NCBI GenBank assembly: GCA_009914755.4
Contig: CP068257.2
Location: 30,368,001-30,432,000 of the forward strand
From: the human T2T-CHM13v2.0 reference genome, Homo sapiens
DNA: 64,000 bases
Direction: 5' to 3'
Of this stretch, positions 40,358 through 44,058 are shown piece by piece. Numbering within the stretch: the first letter of the stretch is position 1; each line of letters opens with the position of its first letter. Under the pieces are notes generated by a model that was given only the letters and a program-made list of their open reading frames with translations, made no database searches and was not told where the DNA came from. The translations under genes were made by a program, and so were the position numbers.

Positions 40358-42437
40358 TTTTTTTTTTTTAATTTTTATTTTACTTTAAGTTCTGGGATAC
40401 ATGTGCAGAATGTACAGGTTTGTTACATAGGTATACATGTGCCATGGTGGTTTGCTGCATCCATCTACTCGTCATCTAGGTTTTAAGCCCTACATGCATT
40501 AGGTATTTGTCCTAATGCTGTCCCTCCACTTTCCCCCCATGCCCTGGCAGGCCCCGGTGTATGATGTTCCCCTCCCCATGTCCATGTGTTCTCATTGTTC
40601 AACTCCCACTTATGAGTGAGAATATGCTGTGTTTGGTTTTCTGTTACTGTGTTAATTTACTGAGAATGATGGCTTCCAGCTTCATCCATGTGCCTGCAAA
40701 CGGACATGAGTGTGTTCTTTTTTATGGCTGCATATGGTGTATATGTGCCACATTTTCTTTATCCAGTCTATCACTGATGGGCATTTGGGTTGGTTCCAAG
40801 TATTTGCAATATTGTAAATTGTGCTGCAATAAACATACGTGTGCATGTGTCTTTATAGTAGAATGACTTATAATCCTTTGGGAATATACCCAGTAATGGG
40901 ATTGCTGGGTCAAATGGTATTTCTGGTTCTAGATCCTTGAGGAATCGCCACACTGTCTTCTACAATGGTTGAACTAATTTACACTCCCACCAACAGTGTA
41001 AAAGCGTTCCTATATCTCCACAGCCTCACCAGCATCTGTTTTTTCCTGACTTTTTATTAATCTCCATTCTAACTGACATGAGATGGTATCTCATTTTGGT
41101 TTTGATTTGCATTTCTCTAATGACCAATGATGAGGTTTTTTTCATGTTTGTTGGCTGCATAAATGTCTTCTTTTGCCCACTTTTTGATGGGGTTGTTTTT
41201 TTTCTTATACATTTGTTAGGTTCCTTGTAGATTCTGCACATTAGATCTTTGCCAGATGGGTAGCTTGCAAAAATTTTATCCCGTTCTGTAGGATGCCTCT
41301 TCATGCTGATGACAGTTTAGTTTGCTGTGCAGAAGCTCTTTAGTTTGATTAGATCCCATTTGTCAATTTTGACTTTTGTTGCAATTGCTTTTGGTGTTTT
41401 AGTCATGAAGTCTTTGCCCATGCCTATGTCCTGAATGGTATTGCCCAGGTTTTCTTCTAGGGTTTTTATGGTTTTGGGTTTTACATTTAAGTCTTTAGTC
41501 TTAATCTTGAGTTAATTTTTGTATAAGGTGTAAGGAAGGGGTCCAGTTTCTGTTTTCTGCATATGGCTATCCAGTTTTCCCAGCACCATTTATTAAATAG
41601 GGAATCCTTTCCCCATTTCTTGTTTTTGTCAGGTTTGTCGAAGATCAGATGGTTGTAGATGTGTGGTGTTATTTCTGAGGTCTCTGTTCTGTTCCATTGG
41701 TCTATACATCTGTTTTGGTACCAGTAACATGCTGTTTTGGTTACTGTAGCCTTGTAGTATAGTTTGAAGTCAGGTAACATGATGCCTCCAGCTTTGTTCT
41801 TTTTGCTTAGGATTGTCTTGGCTATAAGAGCTCTCTTTTGGTTCCATATGAAATTTTAAGTAGTTTTTTCTAATTCTGCAAAGAAAGTCACTGGTAGCTT
41901 GATGGGAATAGCATTGAATCTATAACTTACTTTGGGTAGTATGGCTATTTTCATGATATTGATTCTTCCTATCCATGAGCATGGAATGTTTTTCCATTTG
42001 TTTGTGTCCTCTCTTATTTCCTTGAGCAGTGGTTTTGTAGTTCTCCATGAAGAAGTCCTTCGCATCCCTTGTAAGTTGTATTCCTAGGAATTTTATTCTC
42101 TTTGTAGCAATTGTGAATGGGAGTTCACTCATGATTTTGTTCTCTGCTTCTGTATTGTTGGTGTATAGGAATGCTTGTGATTTTTACACATTAATTTTGT
42201 ATCCTGAGACTTTGCTGGAGTTGCTTATCAGCTTGAGGAGTTTTGGGGCTGAGAAGATGGGGTATTCTAAATGTACAGTCATGTCATCTGCAAACAGAGA
42301 CAATTTGACTTCCTCTCTTCCTATCTGAATACGCTTTATTTCTTTCTCTTGCCTGACTGCCCTGGCCAGAACTTCCAATACTATGTTGAATAGGACTGGT
42401 GAGAGAGGGCATCCTTGTCTTGTGCCAGTTTTCAAAG
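40358..42437 (-). mobile_element. L1 (primate L1P/L1PA-type), direct 3' segment of a twin-primed insertion: poly-A, 3' UTR, ORF2 C-terminal half
   Basis: Begins with T12 then TAATTTTTATTTTACTTTAAGTTCTGGGATACATGTGCAGAATGTACAGGTTTGTTACATAGGTATACATGTGCCATGGTGGTTTGCTGCATCC, which is the reverse complement of the L1 3' end. The minus-strand ORF 42184..42450 translates to [57 protein letters not shown] (L1 ORF2 reverse-transcriptase motif). Other minus ORFs 41026..42132 give further ORF2 fragments. Confidence 0.85.
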
Positions 42438-44058
42438 GTAAAGGGATCAAAGCAACAAGAAGAGCTAACTATCGTAAATATATATGCACCCAATACAGGA
42501 GCACCCAGATTCATAAAACAAGTTCTTAGAGAACTACAAAGACTTATACTCCCACACAATAATAGTGGGAGACTTTAACATACCACTGTCAATATTAGAC
42601 AGATCAATGAGACAGAAAATTAACAAGGATATTCAGGACTTGAACTTAGCTAGGGACCAAGTGGACTTAATAGACATCTACAGAATTCTCCACCCCAAAT
42701 CAACAGAATATACATTCTTCTCAGGGCCACATAGCACATATTCTAAAATCAACCACATAATTGGAAGTAAAACACTCCTTAGCAAATGCAAAAGAACAGA
42801 AATCATAACAAACAGTCTCTCAGACCACAGTGCAATCAAATTATAACTCAGGATTAAGAAACTCACTCAAAACTGCACAACTACATGGAAATTCAACAAC
42901 CTGCTCTTGAATGACTACTGGGTAAATAACAAAATTACGGAAAAAATAAAGAAGTTCTTTGAAACCAATGAGAACAAAGAGACAACATACTAGAATCTCT
43001 GGGACACAGCTAAAACGGTGTTAAGAGGGAAATTCATAGCACTAAATGCCCACATGAGAAAGTGGGAAAGATCCAGAATCCACACCTTAACATCACAATT
43101 AAAAGAACTAGAGAAGCAAGAGTGAACAAATTCAAAAGCTAGCAGAAGACAAGAAATAACTAAGATCAGAGCAGAACTGAAGGAGATAGAGATGTGAAAA
43201 ACCCTTCAAAAAATCACCAAATCCAGGAGCTGTTTTTTGAAAAAATTACCAAAATAGATGGACCACTAGCTAGACTAATAAAGAAGAAAAGAGAGAAGAA
43301 TCAAATAGACACAATAAAAAATGATAAAGGGGATATCACCACTGATCCCATAGAAATACAAACTAACCTCAGAGAATACTAAACACCTCTATCCCAATAA
43401 ACTAGAAAATCTAGAAGAAATGGATAAATTCCTGGACACATACACCCTCCCAAGACTAAACCAGGAAGAAGTCAAATCCCTGAATAGACTAATAAGTTCC
43501 GAAATTGAGGCGGTAATTAACAGCCTACCAACCAAAAAAAGCCCAGGACCAGATGGATTCACAGCCAAATTCTGCCAGAGGTACAAAGAGGAGCTGGTAC
43601 CATTCCTTCTGGAACTATTCCAAACAATAGAAAAAGAGGGACTCCTCCTTAACTCATTTTATGAGGCCAGCATCATCCTGATACCAAAACCTGGCAGAGA
43701 CACAACAAAAAAAGAAAATTTGAGACCAATATCCCTAATGAACATCAATGCCACCATCCTCAATAAATACTGGCAAACCAAATCCAGGAGCACATCAAAA
43801 AGCTTATCCACCACGATCAAGTCGGCTTCATCCCTGGGATGCAAGGCTGGTTCTATGTATGCAAGTCAATAAATGTAATCCATCACATAAACAGAACCAA
43901 TGACAAAAACCACATGATTATCTCAATAGATGCAGAAAAGCCTTCTATAATATTCAGCATCCCTTCATGCTAAATATTCTCAATAAGAAGTATTGATGGA
44001 ACATATCTCAATAAAAGCTATTTATGACACACCCATGGCCAATATCATACTGAATGGG
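42438..44058 (+). mobile_element. L1 ORF2 5' portion (endonuclease to early RT), inverted relative to the adjoining 3' segment of the same insertion
   Basis: GGTAAAGGGATCAAAGCAACAAGAAGAGCTAACTATCGTAAATATATATGCACCCAATACAGGAGCACCCAGATTCATAAAACAAGTTCTTAGAGAACTACAAAGACTTA... The plus ORFs 42565..42846 (MGDFNIPLSILDRSMRQKINKDIQDLNLARDQVDLIDIYRILHPKSTEYTFFSGPHSTYSKINHIIGSKTLLSKCKRTEIITNSLSDHSAIKL) and 43420..43872 (..[74 protein letters not shown]..) are L1 ORF2 endonuclease/RT sequences. The segment ends ..CCAATATCATACTGAATGGG at 44058. Confidence 0.85.

What the first reader, a model, noticed from the sequence alone, without database searches (positions are those of the whole stretch)
40358..44058. 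Textbook twin-primed L1 insertion (inversion with small deletion at the breakpoint)
A 3.7-kb 5'-truncated L1 is split into two oppositely oriented parts. Segment 40358-42437 is antisense to the top strand and runs from the poly-A through the 3' UTR to the ORF2 motif ..[15 protein letters not shown]. Segment 42438-44058 is in the opposite orientation and covers ORF2 from GGTAAAGGGATCAA.. (endonuclease region) up to ..ANIILNG. The L1 coordinate where the inverted block ends (..ILNG) abuts the coordinate where the direct block begins (FPLKTG), missing only about 10 bp. Microhomology AAAGG lies at the internal junction near 42437. This is exactly the architecture produced by twin priming during target-primed reverse transcription. 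Possible flanking TSD CTTCTTTT.
Basis: partly seen in the sequence, partly recalled or inferred. Interest (0 to 1): 0.5.

Follow-up and report, generated by a model that had tools for sequence, protein, structure and literature searches.

The report
Old L1 insertion with inverted 5' half
This is a dead, roughly 3.7-kb primate L1 retrotransposon copy whose front half was pasted in backwards during insertion, a common and well-described by-product of L1 copying ("twin priming"), so it is real but ordinary.

Summary
Window 40358-42438 (minus strand) is L1 ORF2 residues 652-1275 plus the 3'UTR and a short poly(A). Window 42437/42439-44058 (plus strand) is ORF2 residues 100-645. The two blocks abut with no foreign DNA between them.

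In L1 coordinates, the flank-side end of the inverted block (ORF2 nt 1935) and the start of the direct block (nt 1954) are separated by exactly 18 bp (CAAAA[A/G]CTGGAAGCATTC). Those 18 bp are present in 34 of 36 young and most older reference L1 copies.

Both blocks are equally diverged: 10.56% vs 10.55% from a young-L1 consensus, and 6.1% vs 5.9% from an older-variant consensus. The same references rank closest to both.

- The deletion is 18 bp, not about 10.
- The direct block starts at P652, not F651.
- Exact junction microhomology is GG (2 bp) inside an imperfect 6-of-8 patch, not AAAGG.

The 5' junction is the non-textbook part. The candidate target-site duplication (TSD) CTTCTTTT is short (8 bp, P about 0.02). 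It is separated from the L1 by 8 unassigned nucleotides (TATGTGTG).

Twin priming is the best explanation (about 0.9). 5'-inverted L1s make up about 10% of human L1 copies, so this is already known and of low interest.

The parts
40354..40361 (.). Left copy of the candidate target-site duplication CTTCTTTT. Its last four T's merge into the poly(T) run. The inferred first-strand nick is on the plus strand after this TTTT (pre-insertion CTTCTTTT^AGTG, a TTTT/A-type endonuclease site).
   Evidence: Exact 8-bp match to 44067-44074. P(8 bp or longer at these constrained positions) = 0.02 against 5000 random right flanks from the window. No longer or gapped TSD was found.
40362..40601 (-). Short poly(A) tail (poly(T) run 40358-40369 on the plus strand), the L1 3'UTR and the ORF2 stop codon (40599-40601). 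This is the 3' end of the direct (poly(A)-primed) block. The 3'UTR carries a 17-18-nt segment (…GGGCTTAAAACCTAGATGA…) that is absent from young L1s.
   Evidence: Sequence read. blastn to L1 references reaches the 3' end. The 3'UTR segment is shared with older copy L124 only.
40602..42438 (-). Direct block, coding part. It is the remnant of ORF2 residues 652-1275 (part of the reverse transcriptase domain plus the C-terminal region), broken by stops, frameshifts and private deletions (24, 8, 3 and 3 bp). Its 5' end (Z) is window 42438 = ORF2 nt 1954, about L1 nt 3940.
   Evidence: tblastn, translation, blastn and MSA, private indels, coordinate conversion.
42437..42438 (.). Inversion junction. 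The dinucleotide GG can be assigned to both blocks (exact 2-bp microhomology). It sits inside an imperfect patch at 42434-42441, AAAGGTAA, where the two L1 sites (AATGGTAA and AAAGGGAA) agree at 6 of 8 positions.
   Evidence: Reference sequences at both sites. Overlapping ends of alignments.
42439..44058 (+). Inverted (internally primed) block. It is the remnant of ORF2 residues 100-645 (from inside the endonuclease domain to the reverse transcriptase domain), with many stops. The end at the internal junction (Y) is ORF2 nt 297/299, about L1 nt 2283/2285. The flank-proximal end (X) is window 44058 = ORF2 nt 1935, about L1 nt 3921.
   Evidence: tblastn, translation, blastn. 108 alignments end exactly at 44058.
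44059..44066 (.). Eight unassigned nucleotides, TATGTGTG, between the L1 end and the right TSD copy. They are either filler (extra nucleotides) added at the 5' junction or native flank.
   Evidence: Not L1 at this position. No convincing source: the complement CACACATA occurs at ORF2 nt about 17 and 150, but an 8-mer match in 6 kb is not significant. The same 8-mer recurs in the TG-rich repeat about 0.9 kb downstream.
44067..44074 (.). Right copy of the candidate target-site duplication CTTCTTTT.

Best explanation
A single L1 RNA of a mid-aged primate (L1PA-type) subfamily was inserted by target-primed reverse transcription, with two priming events (twin priming).

1. The L1 endonuclease nicked the plus strand at CTTCTTTT^AGTG.
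2. That 3'-OH primed cDNA synthesis on the poly(A) tail. Synthesis ran back along the RNA to ORF2 nt 1954. This gave the 'direct' block, now read antisense on the plus strand at 40362-42438.
3. After the second-strand nick 8 bp away, the minus-strand 3' end primed a second cDNA on the same RNA, just upstream at ORF2 nt 1935. Eight nucleotides of unassigned sequence lie at this join. The second cDNA ran back to ORF2 nt 297-299, giving the 'inverted' block at 42439-44058.
4. The two cDNA 3' ends were joined at a GG microhomology.

The 18 nt of RNA between the two start and stop points were never copied. The result is a 3.7-kb, 5'-truncated, 5'-inverted, non-coding L1 fossil.

Shown: the architecture, the coordinates, equal divergence, strand geometry and the nick motif.
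Inferred: the order of events and the priming mechanism itself. Twin priming is a model, accepted but deduced from such architectures.
For: - Same element, contiguous coordinates. The plus strand holds ORF2p 100-645 and the minus strand holds 652-1275 plus the 3'UTR and poly(A), with no DNA between them.
- The gap is exactly 18 bp. 34 of 36 young references carry it, and older copies do too.
- The layout is the one predicted: the high-coordinate end of the inverted block faces the flank, and its low-coordinate end is joined to the 5' end of the direct block.
- The inverted block has no 3' end or poly(A) of its own, so it cannot be an independent TPRT insertion.
- Equal divergence: 171/1620 vs 217/2056 (P = 1.0) and 99/1620 vs 121/2052 (P = 0.83). 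There is no step at the junction in 200-nt bins.
- Similar ts/tv ratios (1.85 vs 1.61). CpG sites are nearly all lost in both halves (0/14 and 3/11 kept).
- Reference rankings correlate between halves.
- The nick site is TTTT/A, and an 8-bp TSD candidate flanks the whole composite (P = 0.02).
- GG microhomology sits within a 6-of-8 patch at the inversion junction.
- No inverted repeats at the breakpoints could drive later recombination.
[quoted passage not shown] About 10% of human L1 copies and about 30% of lineage-specific insertions are 5'-inverted (PMC2912911). In 46% of inverted insertions the two cDNA ends map within 20 bp of each other (PMC12016303).
Against: - The 5' junction is atypical. 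No microhomology is detectable between the 8-nt overhang (AAAAGAAG-3') and the L1 RNA next to nt 1935, whereas only 4.6% of 5'-inverted L1s lack 5' microhomology.
- Eight unassigned nucleotides sit at that junction. Extra nucleotides occur in 3.9% of 5'-inverted L1s.
- The TSD is only 8 bp. TSDs of 9 bp or less are uncommon in this class (PMC2912911).
- TSD significance is modest. It vanishes if the positional constraint is dropped (P = 0.45 for an unconstrained local alignment).
- The 2-bp junction microhomology alone is weak evidence (1/16 by chance).
- The empty site could not be examined.
- The subfamily of each half could not be named for lack of a curated L1 consensus library.
Confidence: 0.9

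Rival explanations
1. An ordinary 5'-truncated L1 (ORF2 nt ~297 to poly(A)) was inserted in one piece. Later, its 5' 1.6 kb was inverted by a double-strand-break/end-joining event that lost 18 bp and added 8 nt at the outer joint.
For: It produces the same final sequence. The 8 unassigned nucleotides at 44059-44066 and the lack of 5'-junction microhomology would fit end-joining scars. Sequence from one genome cannot separate the two scenarios.
Against: One inversion breakpoint would have to fall within a few bp of the L1/flank boundary by coincidence. No inverted repeats at the breakpoints could promote it. Inversions of exactly this form arise in 18-30% of new L1 insertions, so the prior strongly favours twin priming.
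Confidence: 0.05
2. The 5' inversion arose during the single insertion event, but by another route than a second target-primed cDNA. Examples are template switching or fold-back of the first cDNA, followed by end-joining to the upstream target end.
For: The absence of target/L1 microhomology and the presence of extra nucleotides at the 5' junction are not what annealing-dependent internal priming predicts. Twin priming is itself an inferred model.
Against: The 18-bp gap between the two cDNA ends, the orientation of the blocks, and the candidate TSD with a TTTT/A nick site are all as the twin-priming model predicts. No overlap or fold-back duplication exists between the blocks.
Confidence: 0.03
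3. Two independent L1 insertions, in opposite orientations, happen to sit side by side (or one landed at the edge of the other).
For: L1s often nest or cluster. The window contains other L1-like fragments at 14527-14715 and 54254-55815.
Against: The plus-strand block lacks any 3'UTR or poly(A), so it is not a TPRT product on its own. There is zero non-L1 DNA between the blocks. Their L1 coordinates abut within 18 bp; by inference, roughly 37/6000, under 1%, would do so if independent. Divergence is identical, and the same references are closest to both.
Confidence: 0.01
4. An assembly misjoin flipped part of a single L1.
For: None specific. Repeats are error-prone in draft assemblies.
Against: A misjoin would not be expected to delete exactly 18 bp, and the flipped block runs directly into unique flank at 44058 with no break in the sequence. 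The structure matches a common biological class.
Confidence: 0.01

Closest known systems
5'-inverted L1 insertions attributed to twin priming (Ostertag & Kazazian 2001, Genome Res 11:2059, as cited in PMC12016303; surveyed in PMC2912911 and PMC12016303)
   Same: Two abutting, oppositely oriented fragments of one L1. The inverted fragment is the 5' part, and the direct fragment carries the 3'UTR and poly(A). There is a small (18-bp) internal deletion at the inversion point and short microhomology at the inversion junction. The nick site is TTTT/A, and a flanking direct repeat is present.
   Different: The TSD is short (8 bp). There are 8 extra nucleotides and no detectable microhomology at the 5' junction, and both of those are minority features (3.9% and 4.6% of 5'-inverted L1s in PMC2912911). 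Both blocks (1.6 and 2.1 kb) are longer than the medians reported for germline polymorphic insertions (751 and 571 bp, PMC12016303).
Ordinary 5'-truncated L1PA fossil
   Same: Dead ORF2 remnant, 3'UTR, short decayed poly(A), about 6% divergence from an older-variant consensus, almost all CpGs lost.
   Different: The 5' 1.6 kb is inverted relative to the rest.
Twin-priming variants with a 5' poly(T), and 'dual priming' (Meyer et al. 2010, PMC2837659)
   Same: Variant TPRT outcomes with inverted L1 sequence inside TSDs. Filler DNA is reported at some of those loci.
   Different: Those loci have an extremely short or absent non-inverted part, or involve two RNAs. Here the non-inverted part is 2.1 kb, and both parts come from adjacent positions of one RNA.

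Membership tests
Primate LINE-1 (L1PA-type) element | Homology to L1 ORF2p (endonuclease and reverse transcriptase) | tested here: met
   tblastn with ORF2p (validated against PDB 8uw3_A) covers residues 100-645 and 652-1275 at 66-87% identity. DNA identity to 156 L1 copies is 86-92%.
Primate LINE-1 (L1PA-type) element | L1 3'UTR followed by a poly(A) tail | tested here: met
   blastn reaches the 3' end of the reference L1s. A 12-nt A run (T on the plus strand) lies at 40358-40369.
Primate LINE-1 (L1PA-type) element | Assignment to a named subfamily (L1PA1-16) from a curated consensus | not testable with these tools
   No Dfam/Repbase/RepeatMasker is available, and the Khan et al. 2006 paper is not held. 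Indirectly, the element is 10.6% from a young-L1 consensus but about 6% from a consensus of older-variant copies. Its 3'UTR carries a 17-18-nt segment absent from young L1s. From memory, this suggests a mid-aged L1PA.
5'-inverted L1 insertion (twin-priming product) | Two fragments of L1 in opposite orientation, directly abutting, with the inverted one being the 5' part and the direct one carrying the 3' end and poly(A) | tested here: met
5'-inverted L1 insertion (twin-priming product) | The flank-proximal end of the inverted fragment and the 5' end of the direct fragment map to nearly the same L1 position (small deletion or duplication) | tested here: met
   ORF2 nt 1935 vs 1954. Exactly 18 bp are missing, and they are present in the references.
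5'-inverted L1 insertion (twin-priming product) | Both fragments derive from the same RNA (same subfamily, same age) | tested here: met
   Divergence is 10.56% vs 10.55% (P = 1.0) and 6.1% vs 5.9% (P = 0.83). Reference rankings correlate. Named subfamilies were not available.
5'-inverted L1 insertion (twin-priming product) | Target-site duplication flanking the whole composite | tested here: inconclusive
   CTTCTTTT at 40354-40361 and 44067-44074. Positional P = 0.02. It is only 8 bp, offset by 8 nt from the L1 end, with no longer or degenerate version. The empty site is not available.
5'-inverted L1 insertion (twin-priming product) | L1 endonuclease-type nick site (TTTT/A) at the poly(A) junction | tested here: met
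   The reconstructed plus-strand target is CTTCTTTT^AGTG. TTTT/A is a listed cut-site motif (PMC12016303).
5'-inverted L1 insertion (twin-priming product) | Microhomology at the inversion junction | tested here: met
   Exact GG, within a 6-of-8 imperfect patch. This is weak on its own.
5'-inverted L1 insertion (twin-priming product) | Microhomology between the target overhang and the L1 RNA at the 5' junction | tested here: not met
   Eight unassigned nucleotides intervene, and the overhang shows no complementarity to the L1 sequence next to nt 1935. This feature is frequent (about 95%) but not obligatory (PMC2912911).

The most novel reading that the evidence does not exclude
The 5' junction has an 8-bp TSD, 8 untemplated or unassigned nucleotides and no target/RNA microhomology. 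It could record a 5'-inversion made without annealing-dependent internal priming, for example end-joining capture of a second cDNA. If so, this fossil would be an example of a minority, mechanistically distinct route to L1 inversions.
Probability: 0.04. Interest if true: 0.3.

Novelty: already known. Interest (0 to 1): 0.08.

Why it matters
It matters little beyond annotation. It is one more fossil of a class that makes up about a tenth of human L1 copies. Its practical value is as a clean worked example with all three breakpoints resolved to the base. It also shows that the first-stage reader can recognise this architecture from raw sequence. For annotation, the two adjacent, opposite-strand L1 hits should be merged into one insertion event.

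Tried and rejected
- Khan et al. 2006 (PMC1356131), wanted for L1PA subfamily consensus sequences, is not held. No subfamily could be named.
- The viral-contig scan for older L1 copies gave 0 hits.
- A search for a longer, mismatched or gapped TSD found only the exact 8-mer. An unconstrained local alignment of the flanks is not significant (P = 0.45).
- A search for a template for the 8-nt filler found only non-significant 8-mer matches. These were CACACATA at ORF2 nt about 17 and 150, and TATGTGTG in the downstream TG-rich repeat.
- I tried to reconstruct the empty site from paralogues of the flanks, in the window and in about 417 kb of fetched primate DNA. The flanks are unique.
- The tblastn alignment running past 44058 (ORF2p residues 630-668, 48% identity) is an over-extension. 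108 DNA alignments stop exactly at 44058.
- Short references hinted at higher divergence at the end of the inverted block. Binned against consensus sequences, there is no step at the junction.
- L124, the only fetched copy sharing the 3'UTR extra segment, is not closer overall because of its own decay.
- Later recombination between inverted repeats is rejected. There are no inverted repeats at the breakpoints, and the two blocks share no L1 sequence.
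Full report
**What is there.** The stretch 40358-44058 reads as primate L1. The wider window has an Alu-type SRP hit at 1173-1289, so it is a primate genome.

For a coordinate reference I wrote out human L1 ORF2p from memory and tested it against the Protein Data Bank copy. 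It aligns 1-1275 to chain 8uw3_A ("LINE-1 retrotransposable element ORF2 protein"), with two substitutions in the printed part, which I corrected.

tblastn of that protein against the window gives two sets of hits:
- On the minus strand, residues 652-1275 run from 42438 down to 40602.
- On the plus strand, residues 100-645 run from 42438 up to 44058.

Both remnants are full of stops and frameshifts, so this is a dead copy. Downstream of the ORF2 stop on the minus strand lie the L1 3'UTR and a short A run, which is the T run at 40358-40369 on the plus strand.

**Reference DNA.** No curated L1 library is available here, so I fetched real L1 copies.
- A pattern spanning the suspected deletion (CTGAATGGG-N10-26-CCTTTGAAAACTGG) hit 36 contigs filed under bacterial or archaeal genomes. 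These are primate L1 contamination. Several are near-full-length, with 5'UTR, ORF1 and ORF2 landmarks. They are about 97% identical to each other. One (L017) carries the ACA triplet that, from memory, marks L1HS-Ta. I treat them as young L1s.
- A second pattern was taken from a site just downstream of the breakpoint where this element differs from the young copies. It hit 120 metagenome contigs with older-variant L1 copies.

**Breakpoints.** All 36 young references have exactly 18 bp between CTGAATGGG and CCTTTGAAAACTGG, and 34 of them read CAAAAACTGGAAGCATTC. The older copies have the same 18 bp, mostly CAAAAGCTGGAAGCATTC. The window element lacks exactly these 18 bp.

With the ORF2 ATG at L1 nt 1987 in L005 and L010, the three breakpoints are:

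| Breakpoint | Window position | ORF2 nt | L1 nt (approx.) |
|---|---|---|---|
| X, flank-side end of the inverted block | 44058 | 1935 | 3921 |
| Z, 5' end of the direct block | 42438 | 1954 | 3940 |
| Y, inner end of the inverted block | 42437/42439 | 297/299 | 2283/2285 |

With queries that extend into the flanks, 108 alignments end exactly at 44058. The low-identity tblastn extension beyond that point is therefore an artefact.

At the internal junction the plus strand reads ...TTTTCAAAGG|TAAAGGGATC.... The references read TTTTCAAAGG-GAATGC (antisense side) and CATAATGG-TAAAGGG (sense side). Only GG at 42437-42438 is shared exactly. Alignments from the two sides overlap over 42434-42441, because the two L1 sites agree at 6 of 8 positions.

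**One element or two?** Divergence by substitution was compared against two consensus sequences.

| Consensus | Inverted block | Direct block | Fisher P |
|---|---|---|---|
| Majority of 11 young references | 171/1620 (10.56%) | 217/2056 (10.55%) | 1.0 |
| Same, direct block limited to ORF2 | 171/1620 (10.56%) | 183/1834 (9.98%) | 0.61 |
| Pileup of older-variant copies | 99/1620 (6.1%) | 121/2052 (5.9%) | 0.83 |

- Both blocks move closer to the same older consensus by the same amount.
- There is no step at the junction in 200-nt bins.
- Transition/transversion ratios are 1.85 and 1.61. CpG sites retained are 0/14 and 3/11.
- References that are closer to one block are closer to the other (Spearman 0.70, n = 14; Pearson 0.84, n = 72).
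- The plus-strand block has no 3'UTR or poly(A) of its own, so it cannot be an independent target-primed insertion.
- No non-L1 DNA separates the blocks.

Two independent insertions are effectively excluded.

**Flanks.** The best direct repeat is CTTCTTTT, at 40354-40361 and 44067-44074. It was found by requiring a match that ends at the poly(T) boundary and starts within 30 nt of the L1 end. A repeat of 8 bp or more arises in 2% of trials with random right flanks from the window. No longer, mismatched or gapped version exists, and without the positional constraint the match is not significant.

If this repeat is accepted, the pre-insertion plus strand was ...CATCTCCACTTCTTTT^AGTGATG.... That gives a TTTT/A nick site, one of the canonical L1 endonuclease motifs.

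The geometry is as twin priming requires. The plus-strand 3'-OH after TTTT is followed by poly(T) and antisense L1. The minus-strand 3' end of the same 8 bp (AAAAGAAG-3') is followed by the antisense copy of L1 descending from nt 1935. Between that end and the L1 lie 8 nucleotides (TATGTGTG on the plus strand) that are not L1 at this position and have no convincing source.

The flanks are unique sequence, so the empty site cannot be rebuilt from paralogues.

[quoted passage not shown] It comes with endonuclease-site and poly(A) hallmarks (PMC2837659). All of these are present here, with the TSD only modestly supported.

Such elements are common:
- About 10% of human L1 copies, and about 31% of human- or chimpanzee-specific L1 insertions (PMC2912911).
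- 18-22% of recent germline and somatic insertions, with the two cDNA ends within 20 bp of each other in 46% of cases (PMC12016303).

I conclude that a single L1 RNA was reverse-transcribed from two primers during one insertion, and that the two cDNAs were joined at GG. The architecture, coordinates, equal age and strand geometry are shown. The order of events and the priming chemistry are inferred from the accepted model.

The main rival is a later inversion of the 5' 1.6 kb. It would need a breakpoint that coincides with the L1/flank boundary, and no inverted repeats are there to promote it. It can be excluded only by orthologous loci.

**What is not textbook.** In the survey of 639 5'-inverted L1s, only 3.9% had extra nucleotides at the 5' junction, and only 4.6% lacked 5' microhomology. 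TSDs of 9 bp or less were characteristic of plain 5'-truncated rather than inverted L1s. This element shows all three minority features. That is either a real quirk of this event, or a sign that the 8-bp repeat is not the true TSD and TATGTGTG is native flank. The same 8-mer recurs in a TG-rich repeat 0.9 kb downstream. This does not affect the main conclusion.

**Age and subfamily.** The element is not a young L1. It is 10.6% from the young consensus and about 6% from the older-variant consensus. Its 3'UTR carries a 17-18-nt segment absent from young L1s and shared with one older copy, L124. From memory, this suggests a mid-aged L1PA inserted a few tens of millions of years ago. I could not test that with a curated library. 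The larger deletions in the element (24, 8, 5 and 3 bp) are private and reflect later decay.

**Verdict.** The feature is a known, frequent kind of L1 fossil with no sign of function, so interest is low.

Noticed in passing
window 30593-32441: A 1.85-kb minisatellite, about 123.5 tandem copies of the 15-bp unit CTCCATCCAGGTCCA at 81% match. It accounts for the strongly negative GC skew (-0.39) of the 30-32 kb bin.
   Followed up: no
window 44994-45634: A TG/CA-rich complex tandem repeat with nested periods of 16, 22, 80 and 120 bp, about 0.9 kb to the right of the L1. The 8-mer TATGTGTG that sits between the L1 and the right TSD copy recurs here at 44936, 45048 and 45110.
   Followed up: partly
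loci L001-L036 (genome contigs): 36 contigs filed under bacterial or archaeal species genomes are primate L1 sequence. Examples are several Streptomyces JCM strains, Mycobacterium sp., Psychrobacter cibarius W1 and Arthrobacter antarcticus W2. Some are near-full-length elements with 5'UTR, ORF1 and ORF2. This is host or human DNA contamination of those assemblies.
   Followed up: partly
L041 has two copies of the pattern in opposite orientation, at 53-76 (+) and 2504-2527 (-).
   Followed up: no
window 14527-14715 and 54254-55815: Other LINE remnants. One is a short plus-strand L1 3' ORF2 piece (residues 1195-1257, 68% identity). The other is a minus-strand, much older LINE fragment (residues 764-1168 at 28-33% identity).
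   Followed up: no
window 24643-25100; 9013-9278; 49818-49865; 1173-1289: Simple repeats: (ATATATATGT)n with about 46 copies, (GATG)n with about 68 copies, and (AC)24. There is also an Alu-type SINE, detected as a Metazoa_SRP hit of 71 bits.
   Followed up: no
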